NCBI GenBank assembly: GCA_965221425.1
Contig: OZ244889.1
Coordinates: 3,077,415-3,141,414, forward strand
Source: Candidatus Poribacteria bacterium
GTDB lineage: Bacteria > Poribacteria > WGA-4E > WGA-3G
Direction of reading: 5' to 3'
DNA length: 64,000 bases
The notes beneath the pieces were generated by a model that did no database searches, was not told the origin of the DNA, and saw only the letters and a program-made list of their open reading frames with translations. Shown in pieces: positions 4,852 to 59,076 of this stretch; position 1 is the stretch's first letter, and the number at the start of each line of letters is the position of its first letter. The position numbers and the translations under genes are program-made.

Positions 4852-7593
4852 ATGAAAGTTACAGTGATTTTAAAAACAACCTTAATAGCGATGTCCATCG
4901 CTTTAGCAATTTGTATGGTTTATTTGCCTGGCGCAGTAGCGCAGGAAGAAAGCACAGAAGAAACTGACGCTGCCTCTGAAGAAGAGGCCGTTGAACTTGA
5001 AAGCGTAGTGGTTGTCGGTACTCGGGCAAAGCCGCGTTCCGTTTTGGATTCAGCGGTACCGATCGATATTGTGTCAAGTGATGCCTTTGAAAAACAGGGT
5101 GGCGCGGATCTGCCGGATCTGCTGAGAACTTTGGTGCCATCTTACAACGTCAATACGCAGCCGATTAGTGATGCGTCAACAGTGGTCCGTCCGGCGAATT
5201 TACGGGGACTTGCCCCAGACCATACACTGGTACTCGTCAATAGCAAGCGACGCCACCGTGCCGCAGTGATTCACTGGCTCGGGAACGGTTTGTCTGATGG
5301 TTCACAGGGACCTGACCTGGCACCTATTCCCGCAATTGCTCTGCAACAGGTAGAGGTGCTACGCGACGGTGCATCGGCACAATACGGTTCTGATGCTATT
5401 GCTGGTGTGATGAACTTCCAATTGAAAGACAATTTTGAAGGCGGTTCGATTGAATTTAAACCCGGTATCTACCAACACGGCGACGGTAGACAATTTGCGC
5501 TCGCTGGCAACATCGGTTTAGGGGATACAGACGCGTGGACTAGCCTCAGTTTTGAATACGGTGGCGCAGATCCGACCATCCGTTCTGTGCAACGCGATGA
5601 CGCTATAAACCTGATTAACGCAGGCAATTTTAGTGTGAAAGACCCCGCGCAAATTTGGGGACAGCCGATTATAGAGAATGATGTCAAATTGTTTGCCAAC
5701 TACGGCGCTACCATCACAGATACCATCGAATTCTATGGACACGCCAACTACGCAAGTAAGCGCGTCGAAGGTGGGTTCTATTTCCGAAACCCAAACACTC
5801 GCAATGGTGTGTTTAGCCCAACCGGGAAAGATGATACGTTGCTCGTCGGGGATTTGCGAGGTTTGACAGATGAGATGGCAGCCTGGGAAACCCGAAAGGC
5901 AGAGTGGGAAGCCGAAAATGCGGCAGCAGTGGAAGCCGGGGAAACATTTCCTGAACTCTCACCTCACGATGCTGACGATATCCCAATAATAGATCACGAA
6001 CCGGATCCCGAAAAGTTGCAAGCCGTTAAGAATGACCCGAATCTATTCAATTTTCAAGAGATGTTCCCAGGCGGATTCACCCCCAGATTTGGTGCATTCA
6101 TGTGGGATAGTGCTGTCGTCGTTGGCGTTAAAGGCACCGCGTTCGAAGACACCTTGGATAACGACTTAACTTGGGATCTGAGCGGTTCTTTTGGACGTAA
6201 CCATGCTGATTTCTTTATCTTCAACACTGTTAATGCTTCGCTTGGCCCAGATACACCGACCCATTTTGATCCGGGTGACTATATCCAGACGGATTATAAC
6301 CTCAACTTTGATGTAACCTATCCGCTCAACGACACGGTGTTCCTCGCTTCTGGTTTGGAATATCGGGACGAAGGATTTGAAATCATAGAGGGCGAACGCG
6401 AGTCGCATCAGATCGGACCCCTCGCAGCGCAAGGCTTCACGGCTGCCTCCAACGGATTTTCGGGGTTCAGCCCAGTTGCAGCAGGCAAGTGGCACCGTTA
6501 CAACGTTGCCGCCTATGTGGAAACTGAAATCAGACCGATTGATCCGCTCCTGCTCGCGCTCGCTGTGCGCGGTGAACAATTTGAAATTTTCGGTAGCACC
6601 CTGAACTACAAAGCCGCTGCAAACTACAAGGTTACGGAAACGATGCGGTTGCGGGGAAGTTATAGTAGCGGGTTCCGCGCACCAACACCCGGACAGCAAA
6701 ATACGTTCAACATTACCACTGAATACGATTTTGAGAAGGGTGATCTCGTTAATAAAGGAACAATTCCTTCCACCAACGAGGCTGTTGGTGTTGTGACAGG
6801 CGAGGAAGATAACTCGCTTGACCCGGAAACATCAAATAACCTCACTGCTGGGTTTACCGTCGATATTCTGGGGGTAAACTTCACCGCTGATATTTTTGAT
6901 ATTCGGCTGAAAAACCGGTTATCGGTGTCACAACACTATACATTGGAAGACGAGCAGAAGGCGCAGCTCATTGCCGCAGGTGTAACCAGCGCTGCGAATC
7001 TGGAAACATTCCAGTTCTTTATCAATGACTTCAATACCACAACCCAAGGTGTTGATACTGTCATTACGGCACCAATACCGAATGGTACGCTCATTGCCGT
7101 GTATAACTTCACGGCAACTGAGGTTACCCATATCGTAATCGACGGAGAACTCGTCGAATTAACTTCTGAATTTGATGATCCTGATTATGAAGAGTGGAAA
7201 AAAGCCACACTGGACGCGCATCGAACCAGGGAACTGGAAGAGAATTTACCCAAACACCGCGCCAGCCTGACGCTCGCGCAATCCATAACGGATGCGTGGG
7301 GAGTAATCGCGCGCGCCAATTATTTTAGTGGTTGGTTCGATTCTGAAGATTACCTACAGAATCCAGATGTAGAAGGCACTGGAGAATACACTGGAAAGGT
7401 TACTGTCGACTTGGAAACCACTTACACCGTGGACTCCGGATTGGCACTCACGCTCGGTGGAAGAAATATCCTCAATACCTATCCTGATGAAAATCCGAAT
7501 GGTGCTGCTTCTGTCGGCAACAAATATGGGCAATTCAGTCCGTTCGGTTTTGACGGTGCATACTGGTATGCTAAAGTTGGTTACAGTTTCTAA
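4852..7593 (+). CDS. TonB-dependent outer-membrane receptor (paralog 1)
   Basis: Signal peptide, then an acidic linker (EESTEETDAASEEEAVELE). Plug-domain motifs (VVVGTR..PANLRGLAPDHTLVLVNSKRR; VLRDGASAQYGSDAIAGVMNFQLKD). ~650 aa barrel ending in aromatic 'GYSF'. RBS AAGGAG 10 nt upstream. Confidence 0.8.
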   Translation: MKVTVILKTTLIAMSIALAICMVYLPGAVAQEESTEETDAASEEEAVELESVVVVGTRAKPRSVLDSAVPIDIVSSDAFEKQGGADLPDLLRTLVPSYNVNTQPISDASTVVRPANLRGLAPDHTLVLVNSKRRHRAAVIHWLGNGLSDGSQGPDLAPIPAIALQQVEVLRDGASAQYGSDAIAGVMNFQLKDNFEGGSIEFKPGIYQHGDGRQFALAGNIGLGDTDAWTSLSFEYGGADPTIRSVQRDDAINLINAGNFSVKDPAQIWGQPIIENDVKLFANYGATITDTIEFYGHANYASKRVEGGFYFRNPNTRNGVFSPTGKDDTLLVGDLRGLTDEMAAWETRKAEWEAENAAAVEAGETFPELSPHDADDIPIIDHEPDPEKLQAVKNDPNLFNFQEMFPGGFTPRFGAFMWDSAVVVGVKGTAFEDTLDNDLTWDLSGSFGRNHADFFIFNTVNASLGPDTPTHFDPGDYIQTDYNLNFDVTYPLNDTVFLASGLEYRDEGFEIIEGERESHQIGPLAAQGFTAASNGFSGFSPVAAGKWHRYNVAAYVETEIRPIDPLLLALAVRGEQFEIFGSTLNYKAAANYKVTETMRLRGSYSSGFRAPTPGQQNTFNITTEYDFEKGDLVNKGTIPSTNEAVGVVTGEEDNSLDPETSNNLTAGFTVDILGVNFTADIFDIRLKNRLSVSQHYTLEDEQKAQLIAAGVTSAANLETFQFFINDFNTTTQGVDTVITAPIPNGTLIAVYNFTATEVTHIVIDGELVELTSEFDDPDYEEWKKATLDAHRTRELEENLPKHRASLTLAQSITDAWGVIARANYFSGWFDSEDYLQNPDVEGTGEYTGKVTVDLETTYTVDSGLALTLGGRNILNTYPDENPNGAASVGNKYGQFSPFGFDGAYWYAKVGYSF

Positions 7594-7607
7594 ACCTATA
7601 AAATAAA

Positions 7608-7650
7608 CTCAGTAGGCGTGTTTGTAAATCTGCAATTCACGCCTACTTAC
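7608..7650 (+). terminator. stem-loop downstream of TBDT paralog 1 (stem GTAGGCGTG/CACGCCTAC)
   Basis: 9 bp perfect stem starting 15 nt after the stop codon, followed by T-rich 'ttactttgtaagtt'. Confidence 0.4.
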
Positions 7651-7705
7651 TTTGTAAGTTCTGTTGTAAACCAAGTATTTTCATAACATAAGGGGAGATT
7701 AAATT

Positions 7706-10309
7706 ATGAAAGTCACAATTATCATTAAACCGCTTCTGCTTGCGTTTTACATAGCATTAGCGGTTTCTATGGTCTTTTCACCTGTTGTTGAAGCAGATAA
7801 CCATGAAAGTGAAACTGAACCAAGCGAAGCAGCATCTGATGAAGAAGTCGTAGAGCTTGAAGGATTGGTTATTGTCGGTACGCGTGCAAAACCACGTTCC
7901 GTTCTTGAATCCACTGTACCGATTGATGTTGTGCTTAGCGATGACTTTGTTAAACAGGGTGGCGCAGATGTGCCCGACCTGTTAAGAAATTTGGTACCTT
8001 CTTACAATGTAAATGCACAGCCTATCGCTGACGCAGCAACTGTGGTGCGCCCTGCAAATCTTAGGGGGTTAGCACCTGATCACACGTTGTTGCTTGTCAA
8101 CGGCAAACGTCGGCACCGAGCATCTGTGATTACTTGGCTTGGCAACGGATTATCCGATGGTTCACAAGGTGCGGATCTCTCACCTATTCCTGCTATCGCG
8201 ATCAAACAGATGGAAGTCCTACGGGATGGGGCATCCGCGCAATACGGTTCCGATGCTATTGCTGGTGTGATGAACTTACAATTGAAAGATAGTTACAAAG
8301 GCGGCTCTTTAGTAATTAAACCCGGTATTTATCAAGCAGGTGATGGACTCACATATTCTGTCGCCGGTAATATTGGTTTGGGTAGAGAAGATATCTGGGC
8401 AAATCTCAGTTTGGAATATGGCAACGCAGATGAAACAGAGCGTTCCGTACAACGAGACGATGCCGCCGCTCTGTCCGCTGCAGGGAATAGCTATGTTGCT
8501 AATCCTGCTCAACCTTGGGGACACCCGATTATTAGAGATGACATCAAATTCTTTGCAAATTATGGGGTCGACATTGTTAATAACATTCAACTCTACGGTC
8601 ATGCCAACTACGCACAAAAACAGGTTGAAGGTGGATTCTATTTCCGAAATCCCAATACTCGACCTGCCGTATTTAGCAATGACGGTGGAGAAACCTTGCT
8701 TGTGGGACGTGTAGCTGGGGAGGGTGAAGTTCCTGTGGTCAAGATAACTGATAATGTCCCAGACCCAGAGGCTTTACAAATGGTCTTTGATGACCCCAAC
8801 CTTTTCACATTCCAAGAACTCTTCCCGGGTGGTTTTACGCCCCGCTTCGGAGCTGACACGCAAGACCTTTCTGGTCTTGTTGGACTGAGAGGAACAGTCG
8901 CTGAGGATTTGGGATGGGATTTAAGTGCCTCTTATGGACGGCACGCTTCTGATTTCTTCATCAAGAATACTGTTAACGCCTCCCTTGGACCAGATACACC
9001 TACCGAATTTGATCCGGGTGATTATATCCAAGCGGATACGAACATTAACCTTGACCTTACTTATCCACTGCACGACCTTGTCTTTCTCGCTGCAGGTGGT
9101 GAATATCGAACTGAGACTTTCGAAATTGTGCAGGGTCAGGAGGAGTCTTGGAAAATTGGTCCATTGGCAAGTCAAGGATTCAGTTCCGGTTCAAACGGAT
9201 TCCCCGGCTTCAGTGATATTGCACAAGGCGATTGGACACGTTCCAATTTTGCGGGATATTTGGAAACCGAATTGAAACCGATTGACCCATGGGTTGTTAG
9301 CGCCGCTATCCGAGCCGAAAACTTTGAGGATTTTGGTAGCACAATCAATTACAAAGTTGCAACGAGTTATGCTTTTAGCAACGATCTCAAGGAACTTCTT
9401 ACACTTGATCCCGGGGTTGACTTGAGAGTTCGTGGCAGTTATAGCACAGGTTTCCGGGCACCGACGCCAGGACAACAAAATGCCTTTAACGTCACAACGG
9501 AATTCGGTGAAAACAATACGTTGGTCAATAAAGGCACTATTCCTTCCACGCATGCTGCCGCAGAATTAGTAGGTGGTAAAGCACTTGAACCTGAAAAGTC
9601 AAAAAACTTTACTGTGGGAACGGTGATCAGTGATGATGTCGTTAGTGTTACAATAGATTATTTCAATATCAAGGTTGAGGATCGGTTGGCGCCCACTAAA
9701 GACTTCCAACGCGGCGAAGATATTACTGAGGAACAGATCCAGCAACTCGTTGATGAAGGCATTACAAGTGCCGGAAACTTGCAAGAATTCCGATTCTTTA
9801 CTAATGAATTTGAAACAAGTACCCAAGGTATTGATATTGTGCTGACAGCACCTGTCGCCAAAGGCGCTGTGAGTTTGGCATATAACTACACCAATACTGA
9901 GGTTACCAAACGCAACGCTGATATCCTGGACGATACACGTGTCCGGTTATTGGAAGAAGGACTACCCAAACACCGTGGGAACGTGACGTTAACACAAAAT
10001 GTTGTAGGTAATTTAGGGGTTTTGGGACGCGTCAATTACTACGGACCTTGGTATGAGTATGCTGTCGGTTCACAAATCTATGACGACGTGTTTTTAGTTG
10101 ATCTTGAATTTAACTATGCATTTGCGGATAACTTAGGTATCACCGTTGGTGTGAATAATGTTTTTAATGTTGAACCTAATAACGTCACATGGTCAGACCC
10201 GAATATTGAGAACTTTACCGGTTCAATCGTTGGAAGACCTTTTGGTGAATATAGCCCTTACGGATTTGGCGGAGCGTTTTGGTATACCAAAATCGGTTAC
10301 AATTTCTAA
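7706..10309 (+). CDS. TonB-dependent outer-membrane receptor (paralog 2, tandem duplicate of 4852-7593)
   Basis: Same architecture: signal, acidic linker, conserved plug blocks (ANLRGLAPDHTLLLVNGKRRHRA..VLRDGASAQYGSDAIAGVMNLQLKD), terminal 'GYNF'. Extensive collinear similarity to paralog 1 by eye. RBS GGGGAG. Confidence 0.8.
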   Translation: MKVTIIIKPLLLAFYIALAVSMVFSPVVEADNHESETEPSEAASDEEVVELEGLVIVGTRAKPRSVLESTVPIDVVLSDDFVKQGGADVPDLLRNLVPSYNVNAQPIADAATVVRPANLRGLAPDHTLLLVNGKRRHRASVITWLGNGLSDGSQGADLSPIPAIAIKQMEVLRDGASAQYGSDAIAGVMNLQLKDSYKGGSLVIKPGIYQAGDGLTYSVAGNIGLGREDIWANLSLEYGNADETERSVQRDDAAALSAAGNSYVANPAQPWGHPIIRDDIKFFANYGVDIVNNIQLYGHANYAQKQVEGGFYFRNPNTRPAVFSNDGGETLLVGRVAGEGEVPVVKITDNVPDPEALQMVFDDPNLFTFQELFPGGFTPRFGADTQDLSGLVGLRGTVAEDLGWDLSASYGRHASDFFIKNTVNASLGPDTPTEFDPGDYIQADTNINLDLTYPLHDLVFLAAGGEYRTETFEIVQGQEESWKIGPLASQGFSSGSNGFPGFSDIAQGDWTRSNFAGYLETELKPIDPWVVSAAIRAENFEDFGSTINYKVATSYAFSNDLKELLTLDPGVDLRVRGSYSTGFRAPTPGQQNAFNVTTEFGENNTLVNKGTIPSTHAAAELVGGKALEPEKSKNFTVGTVISDDVVSVTIDYFNIKVEDRLAPTKDFQRGEDITEEQIQQLVDEGITSAGNLQEFRFFTNEFETSTQGIDIVLTAPVAKGAVSLAYNYTNTEVTKRNADILDDTRVRLLEEGLPKHRGNVTLTQNVVGNLGVLGRVNYYGPWYEYAVGSQIYDDVFLVDLEFNYAFADNLGITVGVNNVFNVEPNNVTWSDPNIENFTGSIVGRPFGEYSPYGFGGAFWYTKIGYNF

Positions 10310-39395: not shown

Positions 39396-42266
39396 ATGCA
39401 GAATAAGGAACCTTTCGTTCCGAATGTAATAGGGCTGAAAGCCAACATTACAAAAATAGTTTTCTCTATTTTACTGTTAGGTATTCTCATGCCTGCCTTC
39501 TCTCAAAACGAAGAGGGTTTTAAACTTCAACTGCTCCACGCAGCAGACATGGAGGGCGGGATTGAGGCACTCGAAAATGCACCTCGCTTCTCATCGGTGC
39601 TGAATGCGCTCAAAGCTGATGTTGAAAACACAGTGATCATCGGTGCCGGCGATAGTTATATTCCCGGTCCGTTTTTTGCAGCTGGCAATAACCAGAGCCT
39701 TCGTGAAGTATTAGGGAGGGAAGGTTCAGGACGCGCCGATATTCTGATGCTCAACGCGATGGGCTTCATGGCGGGTGCACTTGGAAATCATGAATTCGAC
39801 GCAGGCACCGGGACACTTGCAAGTTTGATCGCAGCAGATAGAGATTACGTAGGTACAGCATTTCCATTTTTGAGCGCGAACTTAGATTTTAGTCTTGATA
39901 GTAATCTCGCTTCCCTTGTTGTTGAACCGGGACAGGAAGCAAGCACAATTCCCAACAGTATCACGAAAAGTGTCGTTATCACCACGCCTTCCGGCGAAAA
40001 GATCGGTGTAGTCGGTATTACAACACCGCGGCTCGGCAGCCTTTCTGTACCTGGGAACGTTGGAATTGCACCGGCAAACCCAAACGATATGGCGGCATTG
40101 GCAGCTATTGTTCAAGAATCCGTTGACGCACTGATAGCAGCAGGCATCAATAAGATTATTCTCACCGGACATCTCCAACAGATTAGTCTTGATGAAGAAA
40201 TCGCAATGCACATCAAGGATGTTGACATTATCATTTCAGGTGGTTCAAATACGCTTCTCGCCGATGAAACAGATCGTCTCCATCCCGGTGATACCGCGGA
40301 CCGCCCCTATCCGATCTTGACGCAGTCCGCATCAGGCGAACCAATTGTAATTGTTGGAACAGATGGAAATTACCGATACGTTGGACGGTTAGTCGTTGAT
40401 TTTGATGCGGCAGGTGTTTTAATTCCTGAATCAATTGACGCGGCAGTCAGCGGTGCCTTTGTCACCGATGCGCAAGGTGTTGTAGACACGGGTAATGCGA
40501 AACCTGCAGCACGTGTGGTTGAAATCATAGAGGCGGTACGAAATGTTGTGGTTGCAAAGGACGGTAATATCTTTGGACAAACGAGTGTCTATCTGAACGG
40601 AAACCGTGGCTCTGTCCGCACGGAGGAAACAAACATCGGTAACCTAATCGCCGAGGCGAACCTTGCCGCAGGGAAACAGGTTGATCCAAACGTAGTTGTG
40701 TCTTTGAAAAACGGCGGAGGCATTCGCGCCCCAATTGGTGTTACTATAGGTAGTGAACTGTCCCCACCGCCTGCAAATGCCTTGGTTGGTAAAGCGATGG
40801 GGCAGATTTCACAGATTGACATCGAAAATACGCTTCGGTTCAACAACGGATTGACGCTTTTGACCTTAAGCGCAGCAGAACTGCTTGAAGTCATTGAGCA
40901 CGCAGTCGGTGCCTCTGGTGAAGGCTCAATCCCCGGACGTTTCCCGCAAATCGCAGGCATGGCATTCAGCTTTGATACTTCACTGCCGGTGGGTTCAAGG
41001 GTTCAGTCACTTGTTATTACTGACGCAGATGGAAATCCGATAGACACAATCGCCCAAAACGGTGAAATCGTAGGCGATGTGGATCGCACGTTCCGAATGG
41101 TCACGATCACCTTCCTTGTTGATGGCGGAGACAGCTATCCGTATGCTAATTTCCCGAATACGAATCGTGTTGACCTTGCTGAAGTGATGACAGAGGAAGA
41201 ATCTGGTGGGCAAGCGACTTTTGCTGCTCCCGGCACAGAGCAAGACGCGCTTGCAGAATATCTTGCGGAGAACTTCTCTGAAGTCCCGTTTGCAATTGCG
41301 GATGTTGGTCCCAAGAACGATGAACGCATTCAAAACCTTGCATTCCGCGCCGACAGCCTGATGATGCCAAGGGCAAGCGAGAACGTTTATGACATATCAC
41401 TCAGCGCGGGTTTGAATATGATCAGTCTACCACTGATGCCAAATGAACCGGACACAGCGCGTTCTTTCATGGAAAAAACCGGCGCGACTATTATCATTGA
41501 ATTAGATGCCGCTGCGCAAAGGTTCATCGGATGGACAGCAAATTCTATCGGCAATGGATTTTCAATTGAAGGTGGAAAGGGGTATATTATCAACGTCCCT
41601 ACACCGAAGACTGTCAGTTTCAGCGGTAGTGCTTGGCAAAACACCACCTCGACAGCAGCGGCTCCGATGCAGCCATCAATTCCGAAGACGTGGGCATTTG
41701 TTCTCCGCGCGCAGCTTGAAGGTGTCAGTGGTGTCCGGCTCACTGTCTATAATGGACACACCAGAGTCGCTGAGGCGGTTGAGAGTAACAATTTTCATGC
41801 TGCTTGGGCAGATATGAACCTTCAAGCAGTTGTCTCTGTTAGTGATATGTTAACGATCGAAGTACGTGATACAACTGGAACTCTGATTCGCACACTCCAA
41901 CACGAAATCAGTGCCACAGACGTTCACCGAGCGTTCACGGAACTCCGACTCACACCTACTGATCTAATTCCGAAACGGACTGTACTGCTTGCCAATTACC
42001 CGAACCCGTTCAATCCAGAAACGTGGTTGCCGTATCAGTTGGCAAATGATGCTGAGGTCACAATTCGCATCTATTCATTAGTGGGACAACTCGTCCGAAA
42101 TCTGGATATGGGATTTCAACAGGCGGGATACTACATCGGCAAGTCTCGCGCGGCTTATTGGGATGGTCGTAATGATTCGGGTGAACGGCTCGCTTCAGGT
42201 GTCTACTTCTACCAGTTAAGTACTTCTGAATCATCGGAGACTCGCAAGATGGTTATTAGGAAATAG
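39396..42266 (+). CDS. secreted 5'-nucleotidase/metallophosphoesterase-family protein with C-terminal Por/T9SS sorting domain
   Basis: GNHEFD metallophosphatase motif. 5'-nucleotidase C-domain blocks (VSLKNGGGIRAPIG; NTLRFNNGLTLLTLSAAEL). The first metal motif is divergent (LLHAADMEGG, no DxH). CTD NYPNPFNPET..VTIRIYSLVGQLV..WDGRNDSGERLASGVYFYQL matches the T9SS C-terminal domain. Confidence 0.75.
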   Translation: MQNKEPFVPNVIGLKANITKIVFSILLLGILMPAFSQNEEGFKLQLLHAADMEGGIEALENAPRFSSVLNALKADVENTVIIGAGDSYIPGPFFAAGNNQSLREVLGREGSGRADILMLNAMGFMAGALGNHEFDAGTGTLASLIAADRDYVGTAFPFLSANLDFSLDSNLASLVVEPGQEASTIPNSITKSVVITTPSGEKIGVVGITTPRLGSLSVPGNVGIAPANPNDMAALAAIVQESVDALIAAGINKIILTGHLQQISLDEEIAMHIKDVDIIISGGSNTLLADETDRLHPGDTADRPYPILTQSASGEPIVIVGTDGNYRYVGRLVVDFDAAGVLIPESIDAAVSGAFVTDAQGVVDTGNAKPAARVVEIIEAVRNVVVAKDGNIFGQTSVYLNGNRGSVRTEETNIGNLIAEANLAAGKQVDPNVVVSLKNGGGIRAPIGVTIGSELSPPPANALVGKAMGQISQIDIENTLRFNNGLTLLTLSAAELLEVIEHAVGASGEGSIPGRFPQIAGMAFSFDTSLPVGSRVQSLVITDADGNPIDTIAQNGEIVGDVDRTFRMVTITFLVDGGDSYPYANFPNTNRVDLAEVMTEEESGGQATFAAPGTEQDALAEYLAENFSEVPFAIADVGPKNDERIQNLAFRADSLMMPRASENVYDISLSAGLNMISLPLMPNEPDTARSFMEKTGATIIIELDAAAQRFIGWTANSIGNGFSIEGGKGYIINVPTPKTVSFSGSAWQNTTSTAAAPMQPSIPKTWAFVLRAQLEGVSGVRLTVYNGHTRVAEAVESNNFHAAWADMNLQAVVSVSDMLTIEVRDTTGTLIRTLQHEISATDVHRAFTELRLTPTDLIPKRTVLLANYPNPFNPETWLPYQLANDAEVTIRIYSLVGQLVRNLDMGFQQAGYYIGKSRAAYWDGRNDSGERLASGVYFYQLSTSESSETRKMVIRK

Positions 42267-52938: not shown

Positions 52939-54876
52939 CTATTCTTCCGTCTGGCTGAATTTTTGTTTCTCTATCATCAGCATGCCTTTGTTGGTACCTA
53001 TCCACGCGCGATCGTTGTCAATTGCAATACACTGGACAGATAGATCTTCCAATACTATTTTCGGGTAGTCAATAGTACCCACATACTTATCACTATGTAG
53101 GTCATAAATAGTAACGTAGTGTTTTACAGCAACCCATAGGTATTCTTTGCCAGCAACTCCAGTAACGAAGATGTCATTTAAATCTTCCTTTACCTCTAAA
53201 TCGGATTCCACGGGATAAGAAACACCATCCGCACCATCCCAGTTTGCCTTAAAAAAGCCGTTTCCCCTATTTTCTTCATTATACCAAGAAAATAGTGTTT
53301 TGTCTTCAACAACATCAAACCTTACAACTTGTGTCTCTGGTTCAATCTCCAAAAAATTTTTAGATTCCCAAAGTTCTAATTCACGATCAAAAACAGCGAT
53401 GTCGTTTCCTGATGTGCCAACCCATACCGTTTTGGGGGTGAGTGTTATAGTGTGAACGTCATTAGGAATGTTGCTGTTTTCTTGATTATAATGGGCTTCT
53501 ATTATTCCGGTCTTAAGATTCTGTCGTACAACGCCAGCATCTGTGGCAAACCAAATTTCTTCATTATCCATCTTGATATCTCGGATCCACATGCTGGGCA
53601 AACCGTCGGCAATTGTGTAATTTTTTACTTCGGTCGTTTTTTTGTTAAAATGTAAGACACCTTGATTTCGAGTGCCAACCCACACTTCAGATTTGTTCAC
53701 TGCAATTGCGCTGACATCAGGTGTTGTGGAAACATGCTTGTTATCGTTAATTCGCCATGCGGCGGCTTCATTCGCTTTCCATCCGCCAGTGCCGTCGGTT
53801 TCGATTTGGGCAATCCCCTTTGGTGTCCCTATCCACAGCGATGTTCCATCAACGGCAATAGCCTGGATATTCGGATCAGGTAAATTGTCTGTGTAGATGT
53901 TCCACGCGCTCGCTTGTAATACATCGTTTGCTTGTTCAATAATGGTGGTGTCATCACTATTTTGCCGGACAAGGTTCGCTACGTTAACAGCGTTTTTTCT
54001 ATCCCCGACTTGTAAATAAATTATCGCGCGTTTTAAGTGGGCATCATCAACCCAATCGCTGTTTGGATAGATCCTACTGAATTGTTTCAGAATATTTAAG
54101 GCGTTTTCGAATTCTCCGGTTTCAGCTTGTAATACCGCTATTTGGTAAACAGCCTCTTCATGTTCAGGTAAATTAGGAAATTGATTGACCGCTTTTTGTA
54201 ATAATTCAAGCCCTGCTGGAACGTCTTTTAATTCTTTTACCAGAAGGAATCCTGTTTGGTAACTAAGTTTTGCAACAGATTCATGTTCAGGATAATGCTT
54301 GAGTATTAACTGGAAGGCGTTAACTGTGTGGATATAGTTTCCAATAGCAATGGCATTATTACCAATCTCTTGAAGTAGCGGTACAAGGTCAAAATTCTGT
54401 GCATCTATGAGTGCAACAGAACGGAACCTTACTAATGTTTTATCTATATCTCCATCTATTTTATAAAGTAGTCCGAGTTGATAATGTGCATCGGCAAACT
54501 TCGGAAATTCTTCTAATGCTGCTTCAAATTTTCGTTTTGCTAATTCTGGTGATTCTAAATCTAACAAGGCAAGCCCATTACGATAATGTTTTGCTGCGAT
54601 TTGGTTTGGAACATTTTCAAGGTCTGAGATAAAGCTAAGTGTGTGTCCTTTCAGTGGAAACCTTAAAACTTGTCCATTGTATTCAATTTCAAAATGTGTA
54701 TCAGTAGCATTGCGGAATATACCTGTGAGCCTGTCGCCGTTTTCACGGTCTACAATGACATATTGCTCACTACCAGAGAGGTCAGGACGTATTATATCAC
54801 AATAAGCAGTGCTTGTGAATAGCAGGAGCACCAGCGCGAGACTTGTTAATGAAAAGAGGGGGTAAGTGTTTTTCAT
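52939..54876 (-). CDS. secreted TPR-repeat + two-component-regulator-propeller (Reg_prop-like) beta-propeller protein, no kinase domain
   Basis: Signal peptide. Several TPR-like helical pairs. Five or more propeller repeats of type (W/F)(I/V)GT..G(V/I). Confidence 0.55.
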   Translation of the reverse strand: MKNTYPLFSLTSLALVLLLFTSTAYCDIIRPDLSGSEQYVIVDRENGDRLTGIFRNATDTHFEIEYNGQVLRFPLKGHTLSFISDLENVPNQIAAKHYRNGLALLDLESPELAKRKFEAALEEFPKFADAHYQLGLLYKIDGDIDKTLVRFRSVALIDAQNFDLVPLLQEIGNNAIAIGNYIHTVNAFQLILKHYPEHESVAKLSYQTGFLLVKELKDVPAGLELLQKAVNQFPNLPEHEEAVYQIAVLQAETGEFENALNILKQFSRIYPNSDWVDDAHLKRAIIYLQVGDRKNAVNVANLVRQNSDDTTIIEQANDVLQASAWNIYTDNLPDPNIQAIAVDGTSLWIGTPKGIAQIETDGTGGWKANEAAAWRINDNKHVSTTPDVSAIAVNKSEVWVGTRNQGVLHFNKKTTEVKNYTIADGLPSMWIRDIKMDNEEIWFATDAGVVRQNLKTGIIEAHYNQENSNIPNDVHTITLTPKTVWVGTSGNDIAVFDRELELWESKNFLEIEPETQVVRFDVVEDKTLFSWYNEENRGNGFFKANWDGADGVSYPVESDLEVKEDLNDIFVTGVAGKEYLWVAVKHYVTIYDLHSDKYVGTIDYPKIVLEDLSVQCIAIDNDRAWIGTNKGMLMIEKQKFSQTEE

Positions 54877-55338: not shown

Positions 55339-55995
55339 TTGAATGGAAGCATAAAAATGGGAAAAAATGGTCCGATTAAACCAATCACCGTTGGAATTAT
55401 GGGAGGTTCAGCCTCTGGAAAAACAACGTTTGCCACTGCTTTGGCAGAACAACTCGTTGAATTTTCACCTATCACGTTACATCAAGACTCCTACTTTCGG
55501 GATTGGTCAGAATACACACCTGAAGAACGCGAAAAGGTGGTAACAGCAAATCATCCAGATGCGGTGTGTTGGGATGTACTTATTACAGATGTTGAAAAAC
55601 TCCGAGCGCGAAATCCGATTGAAACACCTACACCCGGAACCCGTGCAGCGCAACGTGGTGATGAAAAGAAAATTATAGAATCAAGCGATGTCGTAATTGT
55701 AGAAGGACACCTTATCTATTGGAATCAGCAACTCCGAGAGTTAATAGATATTAAAATCTTTTTGGACGTTGACGCACATGAAAGGGTCCTGCGACGAATG
55801 CTGCGCGATGTCGGCACGCGCAGCGGAAGTCTTGAAAGTGCAATCAGTTGGTACCGACGGGATGTCCTACCTAATTTCCCAATTTACACGGAACCTTATA
55901 AAAAGTACGCCGATCTAATAATTCCGTTTTTGAATGATAATCCTGTTGCGTTACATACCGTTGCAGCGGGGATACGCGCTCAACTTTCTGAGTAA
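55339..55995 (+). CDS. udk: uridine kinase / PRK-family nucleoside kinase
   Basis: P-loop ITVGIMGGSASGKTT followed by the DSYF motif. Uridine kinase family size. Confidence 0.75.
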   Translation: MNGSIKMGKNGPIKPITVGIMGGSASGKTTFATALAEQLVEFSPITLHQDSYFRDWSEYTPEEREKVVTANHPDAVCWDVLITDVEKLRARNPIETPTPGTRAAQRGDEKKIIESSDVVIVEGHLIYWNQQLRELIDIKIFLDVDAHERVLRRMLRDVGTRSGSLESAISWYRRDVLPNFPIYTEPYKKYADLIIPFLNDNPVALHTVAAGIRAQLSE

Positions 55996-56147
55996 AAAAA
56001 AGAACCTACCTTCTCTGCCTATCTAAATTTACCCACAACTCTCCGACTATCACAACCCCGCCTTTTTGACATAGACACCATTTCAATATGGCACGGATAT
56101 GTCAATATGGCAGATTGATTTCCAAAGTTGTCTTATAAGAATCTTGC

Positions 56148-56178
56148 TTCAATCAATTTCTACAAAGGATTGATTGTG
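56148..56178. promoter_or_regulatory. inverted repeat CAATCAAT-N12-ATTGATTG upstream of the Hsp20 cluster (candidate operator)
   Basis: Perfect 8 bp arms ~200 bp upstream of the first Hsp20 ATG. Does not match CIRCE or HAIR consensus. Confidence 0.25.
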
Positions 56179-56255
56179 AATTTCTCTGGACTCCGTTAGC
56201 AGTATGGCAATATCCGGGTTTAATCGCTCATTATAGATAGGATAAAACGTTGTTT

Positions 56256-56271
56256 TGGCATATAAATTGCT
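56256..56271 (+). promoter_or_regulatory. sigma-54-like -24/-12 element TGGCAT-N5-TTGCT
   Basis: Matches YTGGCACG-N4-TTGCW in the GG and GC positions with correct spacing. ~100 nt upstream of the Hsp20-1 start. Confidence 0.3.
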
Positions 56272-56371
56272 CATACCTATTGTAGATGGAAAGCATTTTA
56301 GAATTGTGTCAAAAATTGGCACAGAACTTGCTAATTAAACTTACAAAAAACATAAATCTAAAGGAGAAAAA

Positions 56372-56825
56372 AATGAGACATTTAACAACACGCAGACCGA
56401 TAGGAAATCTATTCAACCTTCACAACGAGATGGGAAGAGTTTTTGGAGATCTGCTCTCCTCTCAGGACAGTGAAACTAATGCTGAAAATACGTCTTGGAT
56501 GCCCACGGTAGACATCTCTGAAACAGAAAATAGTTTTGAAATTCATGCTGAACTTCCTGGTGCCGTGGAAAGCGATGTCAACGTCTCAGTAACTGACAAC
56601 CTGCTCACAATTAAAGGTGAAAAGCGACAGGAAGAGAAGGCTGAAGGCAAAAACTTCCATCGTATAGAAAGAAGATACGGTAGTTTCCAAAGAAGTTTTA
56701 CGCTACCGAGGAATGTTGAAACCGCTGATATCAAAGCTGGATTCAAAGATGGTGTGTTGGCTCTTACAATTCCAAAAGCGGAAGCGGCAAAACCGACTGA
56801 AATTCCGATTTCGGTAAACTCTTAA
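56372..56825 (+). CDS. Hsp20/alpha-crystallin small heat-shock protein (1 of 3 tandem)
   Basis: ACD consensus WMPTVDISE..FEIHAELPGAVESDVNVSV..LTIKGEKRQE..RIERRYGSFQRSFTLP..GVLALTIPK. AAGGAGA RBS. Confidence 0.85.
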
Positions 56826-56908
56826 CCTAATAAAAACGGACGTGCCCTTCTCCAAAATACTATGAGGGCATGTCCTCCGATACGCATAACAAGATAAGGA
56901 GAAGAAAA

Positions 56909-57364
56909 ATGACTTATTTGACTTTACGCAAACCAGTAGCAAACCCTTTCAGGTTCTACAACTCTCTGTTTACGCCGTTATTTGCGCGACCCGAAACACA
57001 AGAATACAAATGGAGACCATCTGCTGACATTACAGAAACGGATGATAGTTTTGAAGTTCGGGCTGAACTCCCCGGTGTCACAAAGGATGATGTCCAAATC
57101 TCTGTTAAAGAGAACCTCTTAACGATAAAGGGAGAAAAACGGCAGGAAAAAACTGACGATTCCAAGAATTTTCGGCGAGTCGAACGACATTACGGAAGCT
57201 TCGAACGGAAATTTGCACTTCCTCCGAAGGTAGAAGCTGACAGCATCAAAGCCGAATTCAAGGACGGTGTCTTAACGGTGTCTATTCCAAAACCAGAAGA
57301 GGTAAAACCGAAAGAAATTCCGATTATTGCTGAATCGGCTGCGGATGCGCCGCAAGAGCGTTAA
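56909..57364 (+). CDS. Hsp20/alpha-crystallin small heat-shock protein (2 of 3)
   Basis: WRPSADITE..FEVRAELPGVTKDDVQISV..LTIKGEKRQE..RVERHYGSFERKFALP..GVLTVSIPK. AAGGAGA RBS. Confidence 0.85.
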   Translation: MTYLTLRKPVANPFRFYNSLFTPLFARPETQEYKWRPSADITETDDSFEVRAELPGVTKDDVQISVKENLLTIKGEKRQEKTDDSKNFRRVERHYGSFERKFALPPKVEADSIKAEFKDGVLTVSIPKPEEVKPKEIPIIAESAADAPQER

Positions 57365-57386
57365 AATAATCCTAAATTCAATAGGG

Positions 57387-57420
57387 TAGGCACAATTGGT
57401 TGTGCCTACCCTATTGACGT
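57387..57420 (+). terminator. 16 bp-stem hairpin AATAGGGTAGGCACAA/TTGTGCCTACCCTATT after Hsp20-2
   Basis: Near-perfect palindrome 23 nt after the stop codon. Confidence 0.4.
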
Positions 57421-57511
57421 TGCATCACTTAATCCGAACAATTTGAGAGGTATAGCGGTCAAAGAAAGTGAAGAATAAATTAGATTACAAATTTAGAAAA
57501 GGAGAATTGGA

Positions 57512-58186
57512 ATGAGAAATAGACCACAACGCGGTCCCAGAGGTGGACGGCGACATCAGTTCACACAGGGACGCGGTAGAAGACAGCGTCCTCATCGTTC
57601 GGGACACACTGAAGCAGAAAGACAGGGACCACCACTGCAAGCAAAAGGACGCCGACAACACCGATCACCTGAAACACGTGGAAATTGGGAACACCGTCCA
57701 CCGAGAGGTAGGAGAAATCGTCGCCGTTCAGCACAAGTGAACTTCAGACCACATCATCCAATGCGAGATATTTTTCTGCATCACAATCGGATGAGGCACG
57801 TTTTTGACAGAAGGTTCGCGTATCGTGAAGGAAAAACGAAAAGAGAAAAATCTAATTGGCGTCCACCCATTGAGTTTTCTGTTTCTGAAGATAAATATGA
57901 AGTATTAGTTGAACTCCCTGGCGTTTCACAAAACGATGTCAGTGTTTCTGTAACTGACAATCTATTAAAGATAAAAGGGGAAAAGGAGCGGAAGGACACA
58001 GATGAAAAGCAAAGGGTACGCCGATCTGATCTACGATACGGAAGTTTTAAACGTGCGCTGCCACTCCCACCAAATGCGAAAGCTGACGGTATAAAAGCCG
58101 AATTCAAGGATGGTGTTTTAACAATTGAGATTCCGAAAACAGAAGCGGCAAAACCAACTGAAATTCCTATCAACGCTGATGCTTAA
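57512..58186 (+). CDS. Hsp20/alpha-crystallin protein (3 of 3) with ~90 aa arginine/glycine-rich basic N-terminal extension
   Basis: ACD WRPPIEFSVSE..YEVLVELPGVSQNDVSVSV..LKIKGEKERKD..RRSDLRYGSFKRALPLP..GVLTIEIPK. N-terminal RGPRGGRRHQFTQGRGRRQRPHRSGH..RGRRNRRRS. The AAGGAGA RBS sits 7 nt before the ATG at 57512, the same context as the two upstream paralogs. The internal Met at 57764 lacks an RBS. Confidence 0.65.
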   Translation: MRNRPQRGPRGGRRHQFTQGRGRRQRPHRSGHTEAERQGPPLQAKGRRQHRSPETRGNWEHRPPRGRRNRRRSAQVNFRPHHPMRDIFLHHNRMRHVFDRRFAYREGKTKREKSNWRPPIEFSVSEDKYEVLVELPGVSQNDVSVSVTDNLLKIKGEKERKDTDEKQRVRRSDLRYGSFKRALPLPPNAKADGIKAEFKDGVLTIEIPKTEAAKPTEIPINADA

Positions 58187-58269
58187 TCCGATATATTGTG
58201 ATGTAAGGTCCCTGTGCCTTGCAATAATAAAAAAGTAAGGCTATAGTAAACTTTAGAATTAATTGGACA

Positions 58270-58380
58270 TTAGGATCGGTTCGGTCAGAAAACCGAAACT
58301 ACCGCAGGCACTGTCCCATAACCTATTAGGTTGTGTTCCGTTTCTGCACAACCTAACAGGTTATGCTACAAAATGTCCTT
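58270..58380. repeat. family B palindromic repeat (inverted orientation relative to 47668 copy) between convergent Hsp20-3 and aquaporin
   Basis: 'cctattaggttgtgttccgtttctgcacaacctaacaggttatgctacaa', preceded by 'ggacattaggatcggttcggtcagaaaaccgaaactaccgc'. Confidence 0.6.
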
Positions 58381-58422
58381 TTAATGCTAAAAGCATCAGC
58401 CTGTTTTCTTTTAGATTATTCA

Positions 58423-59076
58423 CTACTCAGCTTTAGCGTCTTTCTCTTTCAAAACACCAATATAGAGAAGTGCAGCAAGCACTGCCCCTATAAATGGACC
58501 AACAAAGTAGAGCCAAAGGTCAGCATAATTACCGCTTGCAATAGCAGGTCCAAGCGTCCGTGCAGGATTCAGAGATGCCCGCGTCAATGGACCACCCATC
58601 AGGATACAAAACACTAAAGTTAACCCGATGGCAAGTCCTGCAAGGTTTCTCGCTTTTCCGCTTACGGCTGTGTTGAAAATCGTATTAACGAGGAAGAAAG
58701 TTAGTATGATTTCAACTATTAACCCATTTATCGGTGTCACATTGGTAGCTAAAATAGTTACACCCAAATCACCATCTACCGGTAGTACTGCTTTAAGCAC
58801 CAATGCCCCTGCAATTCCACCAGCAAACTGCACAATCCAATATCCTATCGATGCAGCAAATCGGATTTCTCCTGCTACCAAGAGTCCGAGCGTCACAGCA
58901 GGGTTAATATGTGTGCCTGAGATATGCCCATAAGCATACGCAAACGCCACAATGACCAACCCGTGGGCAAGTGCAACGCCTACTAACCCTCCCTTGTCAA
59001 TTGCTAACGCACCAGCACCGATAAAAATTAGCGCGAAGGTACCGATAAATTCAACAACTAAATTCCGTGTATTCAT
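58423..59076 (-). CDS. aquaporin / MIP-family channel
   Basis: Two NPA boxes (SGTHINPAVTLG; SLNPARTLGPA). Six TM segments. Confidence 0.9.
   Translation of the reverse strand: MNTRNLVVEFIGTFALIFIGAGALAIDKGGLVGVALAHGLVIVAFAYAYGHISGTHINPAVTLGLLVAGEIRFAASIGYWIVQFAGGIAGALVLKAVLPVDGDLGVTILATNVTPINGLIVEIILTFFLVNTIFNTAVSGKARNLAGLAIGLTLVFCILMGGPLTRASLNPARTLGPAIASGNYADLWLYFVGPFIGAVLAALLYIGVLKEKDAKAE

What the first reader, a model, noticed from the sequence alone, without database searches (positions are those of the whole stretch)
56148..58186. Three tandem Hsp20 genes, the third carrying a ~90 aa Arg/Gly-rich basic extension; sigma-54-like promoter and palindromic operator upstream
Three alpha-crystallin-domain genes sit head-to-tail, each preceded by the same AAGGAGA RBS context. 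The third begins 250 nt upstream of its ACD with RGPRGGRRHQFTQGRGRRQRPHRSGHTEAERQGPP..RGRRNRRRS, an RGG-like disordered basic tail. Such tails suggest nucleic-acid or polyanion binding and are atypical for bacterial sHSPs.

Upstream of the cluster there is a TGGCAT-N5-TTGCT (-24/-12-like) element at 56256-56271 and a perfect CAATCAAT-N12-ATTGATTG inverted repeat at 56148-56178. Neither is a known heat-shock operator (CIRCE/HAIR).
Basis: partly seen in the sequence, partly recalled or inferred. Interest (0 to 1): 0.5.

Follow-up and report, generated by a model that had tools for sequence, protein, structure and literature searches.

The report
Poribacterial heat-shock cluster with polycationic sHSP
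This is a conserved stress locus of the sponge-associated phylum Poribacteria: three small heat-shock protein genes behind two tandem sigma-54-type promoters, the last gene encoding a chaperone with a translated, disordered, very arginine-rich tail seen only in this phylum.

Summary
The core observations hold. Three Hsp20 genes lie head to tail (56373-56825, 56909-57364, 57512-58186). The third carries about 75 extra N-terminal residues (31% Arg, net +20).

The extension is translated. Start codon, Shine-Dalgarno and reading frame are kept in more than 30 poribacterial orthologues (201-315 aa). dN/dS is 0.25-0.63. The internal Met is not conserved.

These are the only two matches in 64 kb. The pair is conserved in 12 of the 15 distinct poribacterial loci compared; the other three keep one element.

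The palindrome is mis-placed (56150-56176, N11), is no rarer than chance and is not conserved. A 53-bp block at 56062-56114 is conserved instead and is the likelier enhancer.

Also new: a covarying RNA hairpin after gene 2, and a conserved sigma-E-like promoter (57435-57463) just upstream of gene 3.

Sigma-54 control of sHSP genes has precedent. The polycationic tail has no homologue outside Poribacteria. Its function (polyanion binding) is inferred. No rpoN or activator gene lies in the window or the fetched loci, and their presence in the genome could not be tested.

The parts
56062..56114 (+). Conserved upstream block cTTTTTGACATA-N-TTTCAAnATGGCACGGATATGTCAATnTGGCAG. It is the candidate enhancer (UAS) for a sigma-54 activator.
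   Evidence: It is the only strongly conserved stretch of the intergenic region in 14 distinct poribacterial sequences. The core pattern occurs once in the window and once per locus, and once in each of 12 poribacterial species genomes. In every case a -24/-12 promoter follows 125-508 bp downstream. Divergent loci L043 and L044 keep a variant of it.
56150..56176 (.). Probably not functional as an operator.
   Evidence: The window contains 106 such perfect 8-bp inverted repeats. The repeat is reduced to 6 bp in L041, degenerate in L001/L035 and absent in the other relatives.
56256..56271 (+). P1, the distal sigma-54-type promoter, TGGCATataaaTTGCT. Predicted transcription start near 56282.
   Evidence: Exact match. 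Conserved with the same GG-N10-GC spacing in 14 of 15 distinct loci. It has decayed by a 1-bp spacer deletion in L001/L003/L035.
56317..56332 (+). P2, the proximal sigma-54-type promoter, TGGCACagaacTTGCT. Predicted transcription start near 56343, about 30 nt before the ATG.
   Evidence: Exact match to the consensus. Conserved in every locus that reaches this far. It usually lies 61-72 bp downstream of P1.
56373..56825 (+). hsp20-1: 150 aa, pI 5.4, 'MRHLTTRRP' type.
   Evidence: Pfam HSP20 E 2.2e-26. pI. Present in some poribacterial loci and absent in others.
56838..56875 (+). RNA hairpin after hsp20-1: a 12-bp stem including G.U pairs. No U-tract follows.
   Evidence: Fold and alignment. Kept with changed sequence in L025, L039 and L015, and deleted in L001/L035.
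56909..57364 (+). hsp20-2: 151 aa, pI 6.0, 'MTYLTLRKP' type.
   Evidence: Pfam HSP20 E 2.5e-28. 51% identical to hsp20-1. Present in nearly all the loci.
57378..57417 (+). Conserved 18-bp RNA hairpin after hsp20-2. Possibly a terminator, attenuator or transcript-stabilising hairpin. No U-tract follows.
   Evidence: Perfect inverted repeat. Five of 16 pairs show changes on both sides, and G.U pairs indicate a structure in the sense-strand RNA. Present in every locus aligned.
57435..57463 (+). Candidate ECF / sigma-E-type promoter for hsp20-3: CGAACAAttt-N-CGGTCAAA. Spacer of 17 nt here and 16 nt in most relatives. Predicted transcription start near 57470.
   Evidence: The only match in the window. 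CGAAC and GTCAAA are invariant in 11 loci, and become GTCYAA in L043/L044. It matches the E. coli sigma-E motifs GGAACTTTT and (T/C)GGTCAAAA with a 15-19 nt spacer (PMC1312014). RNAalifold predicts no consensus RNA structure over it.
57512..58186 (+). hsp20-3: 224 aa, pI 11.3, net charge +26. Layout: extension, canonical N-terminal domain, alpha-crystallin domain, C-terminal I-P-I motif.
   Evidence: Pfam HSP20 E 1.9e-24 over residues 124-220. More than 30 full-length orthologues. I218, P219 and I220 are invariant. AlphaFold2 gives a beta-sandwich with pLDDT 84-87.
57512..57736 (+). Codons 1-75: the disordered polycationic extension (23 Arg, 10 Gly, 8 Pro, 8 Gln; net +20).
   Evidence: Composition. 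pLDDT is below 50. dN/dS is 0.25-0.63 in seven pairwise comparisons. The start MRNxPQxGPRG and the Shine-Dalgarno are conserved. The tail alone finds no homologue outside the poribacterial orthologues among 1.84 billion representatives.

Best explanation
This is the phylum-wide small heat-shock (sHSP) locus of Candidatus Poribacteria.

Shown:
- Two or three paralogous sHSP genes sit in a conserved neighbourhood (PRK kinase, Hsp20 genes, aquaporin, sulfatase).
- The last gene always encodes a canonical sHSP (N-terminal domain, alpha-crystallin domain, I-P-I motif). A disordered, Arg-rich, strongly cationic extension is prepended to it.
- The extension is translated from the ATG at 57512.
- Upstream of the first gene lie two tandem -24/-12 (sigma-54-type) promoters. 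A conserved 53-bp block lies 145-205 bp further upstream.
- A covarying RNA hairpin follows gene 2.
- A conserved two-block motif resembling sigma-E/ECF promoters follows the hairpin, about 50 nt before gene 3.

Inferred:
- An as yet unidentified enhancer-binding ATPase binds the upstream block. Under proteotoxic stress it opens the sigma-54 closed complexes at P1 and P2, transcribing the acidic sHSPs hsp20-1 and hsp20-2.
- The hairpin limits read-through or stabilises that transcript.
- The basic hsp20-3 can also be switched on separately by an ECF sigma factor.
- The polycationic tail tethers this holdase to polyanions, most likely RNA, ribosomes or the nucleoid, or else polyphosphate. It may also drive co-assembly with the two acidic paralogues. 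The chaperone would then act as a charge-driven sequestrase for nucleic-acid-associated clients.
For: Genes and domains:
-.

Organism and synteny:
- Source names give the organism.
- Loci L001-L007, L043 and L044 give the synteny.

Translation of the extension:
- 32 orthologues of 201-315 aa keep the frame despite length changes, and keep the MRNxPQxGPRG start.
- The AAAGGAGAAtt-ATG context is invariant.
- Met84 has no Shine-Dalgarno and is replaced or deleted in orthologues.
- dN/dS is below 1 in all seven comparisons.

Charge and disorder:
- The region before the alpha-crystallin domain is 92-206 aa long, 18-31% Arg and net +19 to +34.
- It is only 5-14% hydrophobic, against 27-38% in the N-terminal domains of genes 1 and 2.
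- Residues 1-109 have pLDDT below 50.

Sigma-54 promoters:
- There are two matches in 64 kb against 0.22 expected.
- GG and GC are invariant at fixed spacing while the spacer bases vary across the 15 distinct loci. Twelve keep both promoters.

Upstream block:
- As a control, 12 of 12 poribacterial hits to the block pattern have a downstream -24/-12 site. Only 2 of about 21 independent non-poribacterial hits do.

Hairpin covariation:
-.

Sigma-E-like motif:
-.

Precedents:
- E. coli ibpB is sigma-54 dependent (PMC2831329).
- Sigma-54 sites are enriched before GroEL/IbpA/DnaK-type genes in Planctomycetota and Bacteroidota (PMC12316311).
- The sHSP IbpA binds mRNA (PMC10474464, PMC10410725).
- HSPB8 has an Arg-rich disordered region, and the Hsp42 N-terminal extension drives sequestration (PMC13287201).
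Against: - No rpoN, enhancer-binding protein or ECF sigma gene lies in the 64-kb window or in any fetched locus. Their presence in poribacterial genomes could not be tested with the tools.
- No transcript data are available, so all transcription starts are predicted.
- The upstream block is not a clean palindrome, and its arms do not covary consistently.
- Neither hairpin is followed by a U-tract, so a terminator role is uncertain.
- The -35 of the sigma-E-like motif reads CGAAC, not GGAAC.
- The tail contains almost no RGG triplets.
- Nothing here measures binding to RNA, DNA or polyphosphate.
Confidence: 0.7

Rival explanations
1. The tail's job is not nucleic-acid binding. It could pair electrostatically with the two acidic paralogues to set hetero-oligomer size and activity. 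It could instead bind polyphosphate or anionic membrane lipids. It could also act simply as a solubilising entropic bristle.
For: Genes 1 and 2 have pI 5.4 and 6.0, against 11.3 for gene 3, and they always sit in the same cluster. Charge is conserved while sequence and length are not. Two-sHSP systems with a division of labour are known for IbpA/IbpB (established knowledge; background in PMC10474464).
Against: Nothing discriminates between these roles and nucleic-acid binding. A net charge of +19 to +34 over about 100 residues would bind any polyanion in the cytoplasm, and RNA is the most abundant one.
Confidence: 0.35
2. The conserved CGAAC...GTCAAA block before gene 3 is not a promoter. Gene 3 would then be expressed only by read-through from the sigma-54 promoters. 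The block would be a regulator-binding or RNA-processing site within a tricistronic mRNA.
For: The spacer between the two blocks is also partly conserved (TATAnn), more than is usual for a promoter spacer. The upstream hairpin lacks a U-tract, so read-through is plausible. No ECF sigma gene was seen.
Against: The two invariant blocks sit at the sigma-E spacing of 16-17 nt, and the -10 matches the E. coli motif at 8 of 9 positions. Insertions in L005/L028 fall between the hairpin and the block, not inside it. No consensus RNA structure is predicted there.
Confidence: 0.3
3. The TGGCA-N6-TTGC boxes are not sigma-54 promoters. They would be binding sites for some other factor, with the cluster transcribed by a sigma-70-type holoenzyme.
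For: rpoN could not be verified. The consensus scan reports a weak sigma-70-like match overlapping P1 (TTGGCA-17-TATTGT, 9 of 12 positions).
Against: The sigma-70-like hits are no more frequent than in shuffled sequence (5 against 4.7). The invariant positions are exactly GG and GC at sigma-54 spacing, in two copies across 15 distinct loci. The orientation and the distance to the ATG are typical for such promoters. Sigma-54 control of chaperone genes has precedent.
Confidence: 0.08
4. The palindrome CAATCAAT-N11-ATTGATTG is the operator of a heat-shock repressor or an IHF-type bending site.
For: It is a perfect 8-bp dyad lying between the conserved upstream block and P1. Its minus strand matches the IHF core WATCAANNNNTTR.
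Against: The window holds 106 equally good dyads. The dyad and the IHF-like match are found only in the window and in L041, and are absent from the other relatives.
Confidence: 0.05
5. The Arg-rich region is an annotation artefact, and the real protein starts at the internal Met (57761).
For: A protein starting there would be a normal-sized sHSP of about 141 aa.
Against: There is no Shine-Dalgarno before 57761. This Met is Val or Phe, or is deleted, in orthologues. The upstream frame, start codon and Shine-Dalgarno are conserved, with dN/dS below 1.
Confidence: 0.02

Closest known systems
E. coli IbpA/IbpB two-sHSP operon, including the sigma-54 promoter of ibpB
   Same: Adjacent paralogous sHSP genes form one stress locus. 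A sigma-54 promoter serves an sHSP gene (PMC2831329, citing Kuczynska-Wisnik 2001). IbpA also binds mRNA (PMC10474464).
   Different: Here sigma-54-type promoters are the only recognisable promoters of the first genes, and there are two in tandem with a conserved enhancer-like block. No sigma-32-type or RNA-thermometer element was found (Rfam search). One paralogue carries a 75-165 aa polycationic tail that IbpA and IbpB lack.
Predicted sigma-54 heat-shock regulons of Planctomycetota and Bacteroidota (PMC12316311)
   Same: -24/-12 sites are enriched upstream of GroEL, IbpA-type sHSP, DnaK, DnaJ and GrpE genes in non-proteobacterial phyla.
   Different: Poribacteria are not mentioned in that paper's main text (0 occurrences). 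The tandem promoter pair and the specific upstream block are not described there.
Yeast Hsp42 N-terminal extension and the human HSPB8 Arg-rich disordered region
   Same: In both, a long disordered N-terminal region added to an sHSP changes where and how it sequesters clients. HSPB8 uses an Arg-rich disordered region to enter RNA-binding-protein condensates (PMC13287201).
   Different: There is no sequence homology. The Hsp42 extension is prion-like rather than Arg-rich. These are eukaryotic proteins. A bacterial equivalent has not been described in the library searched.
E. coli sigma-E (RpoE) promoters
   Same: The -35 contains GAAC followed by T-rich sequence. The -10 reads CGGTCAAA. The spacer is 16-17 nt (PMC1312014).
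   Different: The first -35 base is C, not G. The cognate sigma factor is unknown, and no transcription start has been mapped.
Xanthomonas HspA and other solved bacterial and plant sHSPs (5j7n, 3gla, 7bzw, 1gme)
   Same: The alpha-crystallin domain and part of the N-terminal domain align, with E 1e-19 to 1e-11.
   Different: No solved chain covers residues 1-65 of Hsp20-3.

Membership tests
Small heat-shock protein / alpha-crystallin family (PF00011) | Alpha-crystallin domain with a beta-sandwich fold | tested here: met
   Pfam HSP20 E 2e-26, 2.5e-28 and 1.9e-24 for the three genes. AlphaFold2 gives a beta-sandwich with pLDDT 84-87 for Hsp20-3. Matches to solved sHSP structures.
Small heat-shock protein / alpha-crystallin family (PF00011) | C-terminal I/V-X-I/V anchoring motif | tested here: met
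   I218-P219-I220 is invariant across 19 aligned sequences, including genes 1 and 2.
Small heat-shock protein / alpha-crystallin family (PF00011) | ATP-independent holdase activity and oligomer formation | not testable with these tools
   Requires biochemistry.
Sigma-54 (RpoN) dependent promoter | GG at -24 and GC at -12 with exactly 10 nt between them, in the TGGCAC-N5-TTGCW context, oriented towards the gene | tested here: met
   Two exact matches at 56256 and 56317, the only ones in 64 kb. Conserved across 15 distinct loci.
Sigma-54 (RpoN) dependent promoter | Upstream activator (enhancer) site about 100-200 bp away | tested here: inconclusive
   A conserved block lies at 56062-56114, always upstream of the promoters. 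Binding by an activator has not been shown.
Sigma-54 (RpoN) dependent promoter | rpoN and at least one enhancer-binding AAA+ activator encoded in the genome | not testable with these tools
   No GAFTGA, activator Walker-A or RpoN-box motif occurs in the window or in 18 poribacterial loci. The rest of the genome could not be read. No literature links Poribacteria with sigma-54.
Sigma-54 (RpoN) dependent promoter | Transcription start 11-13 nt downstream of the GC, and dependence on rpoN | not testable with these tools
   Needs 5'-end mapping and genetics.
ECF / sigma-E type promoter | -35 GGAAC(TT), -10 (C/T)GGTCAAA, spacer 15-19 nt | tested here: inconclusive
   CGAACAA-N17-TCAAA at 57435-57463. 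The -10 matches at 8 of 9 positions; the -35 has C in place of the first G. Conserved in 11 loci, plus two variants. No cognate sigma factor was identified.
RGG/RG-motif proteins | Clustered RGG repeats (di- or tri-RGG box) | tested here: not met
   One RGG in this protein and 0-2 in 32 orthologues. RG dipeptides number 1-11. The region is better described as an Arg/Gly/Pro/Gln/His-rich polycationic disordered region.
Known heat-shock operators and RNA thermometers (CIRCE/HrcA, HAIR/HspR, ROSE, fourU) | Consensus inverted repeat or an Rfam covariance-model match in the promoter or 5' UTR | tested here: not met
   No CIRCE match with up to 3 mismatches. The only HAIR-like hit is at 48457, far from the cluster. 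No Rfam match with E up to 1 in 55900-58500.
Hsp42-type sequestrase sHSP | Long disordered N-terminal extension that is prion-like (Q/N-rich) | tested here: not met
   The extension is long and disordered. It is Arg-rich and cationic, not prion-like. It is therefore an analogy in function only.

The most novel reading that the evidence does not exclude
Hsp20-3 is a bacterial counterpart of the eukaryotic condensate-associated sHSPs. Its polycationic tail would drive stress-induced co-condensation with RNA, ribosomes or nucleoid DNA, and with the two acidic partner sHSPs. It would protect or sequester nucleic-acid-bound clients. It would be switched on separately through an ECF sigma factor, while the acidic partners respond to a sigma-54 activator.
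Probability: 0.2. Interest if true: 0.7.

Novelty: new variant of a known kind. Interest (0 to 1): 0.42.

Why it matters
- sHSPs are usually acidic, with short hydrophobic N-terminal domains. A phylum-wide paralogue with a +19 to +34 disordered tail, always partnered with acidic sHSPs, offers a natural system for one question: how do charge and disorder direct a holdase to particular clients or compartments in bacteria? So far that question has been addressed mainly in eukaryotes.
- The regulatory layout gives concrete, testable elements for the stress response of an uncultivated sponge-symbiont phylum. These are the tandem sigma-54 promoters, the conserved enhancer-like block and the separate ECF-type promoter.
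- The layout also adds another phylum to the predicted sigma-54-controlled chaperone genes outside Proteobacteria.

Tried and rejected
1. It is common by chance and not conserved.
2. Compensatory change between the arms TTGACATA and TATGTCAA of the upstream block. L004 looked compensatory, but L001 and L007 are not, so each arm is simply conserved on its own.
3. An anti-Shine-Dalgarno sequence (CTTCTCC) in the loop of the hairpin after gene 1, as an RNA thermometer. It is not conserved in L039 or L015, and the hairpin is deleted in L001.
4. A second conserved hairpin around CGAAC. RNAalifold does not predict it.
5. CIRCE, HAIR and Rfam thermometers. None found.
6. Activator, RpoN and ECF sigma genes in the window or in the fetched loci. 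None found.
7. Homologues of the tail alone among 1.84 billion representative proteins. Only a poribacterial orthologue and one spurious repeat ORF turned up.
8. Literature on Poribacteria combined with sigma-54, RpoN, NtrC or Hsp20. Nothing relevant.
9. The AAA (616 aa) and RRM genes that flank the cluster in relatives. Both are absent from this window, and the AAA gene carries PF00004 rather than a sigma-54 activator domain.
Full report
**What is in the sequence**

The window is from a member of Candidatus Poribacteria. The closest proteins carry that name in NCBI, and an identical protein lies on a 5.24-Mb contig.

Three genes lie head to tail on the + strand:
- hsp20-1, 56373-56825, 150 aa.
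- hsp20-2, 56909-57364, 151 aa.
- hsp20-3, 57512-58186, 224 aa.

Each has a Pfam HSP20 domain, with E 2e-26, 2.5e-28 and 1.9e-24. Each has AAGGAGA 5-6 nt before its ATG. The longer ORFs that the ORF list gives for genes 1 and 2 (179 and 164 aa) are not supported. Orthologues start at MRHL... and MTYL.... The neighbours are a PRK-family kinase upstream and a convergent aquaporin and sulfatase downstream.

**The extension of gene 3 is real and translated**

A search of 5.8 billion proteins returned more than 30 poribacterial orthologues of 201-315 aa. They cover the query end to end at 44-79% identity.

- All begin MRNxPQxGPRG, or a near variant of it.
- All stay in frame into the alpha-crystallin domain, despite large length differences caused by internal repeats.
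- In alignment A1, residues of about 76-115 of Hsp20-3 align with the ordinary N-terminal domains of genes 1 and 2. The true extension is therefore about 75 residues.
- The ribosome-binding context AAAGGAGAAtt..ATG is invariant across loci.
- The internal Met (codon at 57761) has no Shine-Dalgarno. In orthologues it is Val or Phe, or is deleted.
- Nei-Gojobori dN/dS for codons 1-75 is 0.25-0.63 in seven pairwise comparisons. For the alpha-crystallin part it is 0.19-0.30. This is the pattern expected of a constrained but flexible disordered region.

**Properties of the extension**

- Residues 1-75 hold 23 Arg, 10 Gly, 8 Pro and 8 Gln, with net charge +20.
- The whole protein has pI 11.3. Genes 1 and 2 have pI 5.4 and 6.0.
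- In 32 orthologues the region before the alpha-crystallin domain is 92-206 aa long, 18-31% Arg and net +19 to +34.
- That region is only 5-14% hydrophobic or aromatic. The N-terminal domains of genes 1 and 2 are 27-38%.
- RGG triplets are rare (0-2), so 'RGG box' is not the right label.
- AlphaFold2 with the alignment gives pLDDT below 50 for residues 1-109, and a confident beta-sandwich (pLDDT 84-87) after that.
- The tail alone finds only a poribacterial orthologue and one spurious repeat ORF among 1.84 billion representative proteins.
- No solved structure covers residues 1-65.

**Promoters**

TGGCAY-N5-TTGCW matches twice in the 64-kb window on both strands, against 0.22 expected. Both are on the + strand and lie 61 bp apart. 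P2 is 41 bp before the ATG of gene 1.

I collected orthologous loci in two ways.
- Exact-protein look-ups gave L001-L007, L043 and L044.
- A pattern scan of one genome per species gave 12 poribacterial species.

Together with the window these make 15 distinct loci.
- Twelve have both promoters, with invariant GG and GC, fixed spacing and variable spacer bases. They are usually 61-72 bp apart, and 178 bp apart in L014.
- In L001/L003/L035, P1 has lost one spacer base and an insertion of about 170 bp separates it from P2. P2 therefore looks like the main promoter.
- In L011 the fetched DNA ends before P2.
- The promoters are kept in genomes that have only two Hsp20 genes.

**The upstream element**

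It is one of 106 equally perfect 8-bp inverted repeats in the window. It survives only as a 6-bp version in L041 and a degenerate trace in L001, and it is absent elsewhere.

The stretch that is conserved is 56062-56114: cTTTTTGACATA...TTTCAAnATGGCACGGATATGTCAATnTGGCAG.
- It carries TGNCA-type half sites at 56067, 56089 and 56100, that is 22 and 11 bp apart, and another at 56108.
- Its core pattern occurs once in the window and once per locus.
- It occurs exactly once in each of 12 poribacterial genomes. A -24/-12 site always follows 125-508 bp downstream.
- As a control, only 2 of about 21 independent non-poribacterial hits to the same pattern have such a site nearby.
- The variable distance to the promoters, which includes insertions of mobile-looking DNA, is what is expected of an enhancer acting by looping.

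I therefore read this block as the binding site of the sigma-54 activator. This is inference, because no activator has been identified.

**Between the genes**

After gene 2 lies an 18-bp perfect hairpin at 57378-57417. In six loci, 5 of its 16 pairs change on both sides while staying paired. G.U pairs place the structure in the sense-strand RNA. No U-tract follows it.

Directly downstream is a two-block motif, CGAACAAttt-N-CGGTCAAAg, at 57435-57463.
- It is the only match in the window.
- CGAAC and GTCAAA are invariant in 11 loci, and become GTCYAA in the two most divergent ones.
- The spacing is fixed at 16-17 nt.
- It matches the E. coli sigma-E motifs GGAACTTTT and (T/C)GGTCAAAA with a 15-19 nt spacer (PMC1312014).
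- No consensus RNA structure is predicted over it.

I read it as an ECF-type promoter that gives gene 3 its own stress input, and I hold this with moderate confidence.

The hairpin after gene 1 (56838-56875) is kept in some relatives and deleted in others. No CIRCE, HAIR or Rfam element is present.

**Mechanism**

Shown: the gene set, the coding status and physico-chemical nature of the tail, and the conservation of the promoter-like elements, the upstream block and the hairpin.

Inferred:
- A stress-responsive enhancer-binding ATPase bound at 56062-56114 activates sigma-54 holoenzyme at P1 and P2.
- The hairpin limits read-through or stabilises the transcript.
- An ECF sigma factor drives gene 3 separately.
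- The polycationic tail tethers Hsp20-3 to cytoplasmic polyanions (RNA, ribosomes, nucleoid or polyphosphate) and/or to its acidic paralogues.

**Precedents**

- The sigma-54 dependence of E. coli ibpB (PMC2831329).
- The enrichment of sigma-54 sites before chaperone genes in Planctomycetota and Bacteroidota (PMC12316311).
- mRNA binding by the sHSP IbpA (PMC10474464, PMC10410725).
- The roles of the Arg-rich disordered region of HSPB8 and of the Hsp42 N-terminal extension (PMC13287201).

**Limits**

- No rpoN, activator or ECF sigma gene lies in the window or in any fetched locus. The rest of the genome could not be read.
- No paper in the library links Poribacteria with sigma-54.
- All transcription starts are predicted.
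- The function of the tail is untested.

**Verdict**

The 'operator' is not supported.

Sigma-54 control of an sHSP locus is a new member of a known kind. The polycationic sHSP paralogue, confined to this phylum and paired with acidic partners, is a new variant of a known kind. It is of moderate interest.

Noticed in passing
L008 (around 2113-2137), L021 (335-359), L031 (5411-5435): Three Magnetococcales genomes share an intergenic ATGGCAGATATGTGACACTGTGGCA. It matches the poribacterial upstream-block pattern. About 106 bp downstream lies a -24/-12-like site (TGGTAT/TGGTAC-N5-TTGCT/CTGCT; a near match in L021). The gene that follows encodes a secreted protein of about 460-514 aa. A gammaproteobacterial MAG (L010) also has TGGCACaggccTTGCT 123 bp from its match. 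This TGGCA array may be a more widespread type of sigma-54 enhancer, or the hits may be chance.
   Followed up: partly
L001 1169-3477 and equivalents in L003-L007, L043, L044; absent from the window: In relatives the PRK-Hsp20 cluster is preceded by a 616-aa AAA (PF00004) gene and a roughly 100-aa RRM_1 RNA-binding protein with a Gly/Arg-rich C-terminus. Neither is in this window (tblastn found nothing). A TPR / Reg_prop protein (52939-54876) sits there instead.
   Followed up: partly
L011, L025, L014, L001/L035, between the upstream block and P1 or between P1 and P2: Insertions of 150-250 bp carrying repeated GTCCCTACGGGAC-type palindromes (MITE-like) have landed between the conserved block and the promoters. 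The conserved elements themselves are not disrupted.
   Followed up: no
window 58312-58370: A 24-nt inverted repeat (88% complementary, 11-nt loop), built from two AACCTAnnAGGTT palindromes, lies between the convergent hsp20-3 and aquaporin genes. It is probably a bidirectional terminator.
   Followed up: no
whole window: Perfect 8-bp inverted repeats with 3-20 nt spacers are about five times more frequent than in locally shuffled sequence (106 against about 20).
   Followed up: no
P0013, P0014, P0018, P0019, P0025, P0026 (loci L006, L038): In some orthologues the tail has grown to 144-206 aa through tandem copies of a unit of about 40 aa (…RRSEYPEGEGHGPPRVRGPRRERPRQAYGKSEHRPPQNRRD…). In L006 a DDE transposase sits next to the cluster and the aquaporin gene is split.
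   Followed up: partly
window 813-3422 and 39396-42266: Two large secreted proteins carry FlgD_ig and Por_Secre_tail (T9SS-type C-terminal sorting) domains. Two adjacent TonB-dependent receptors lie at 4852-10309.
   Followed up: no
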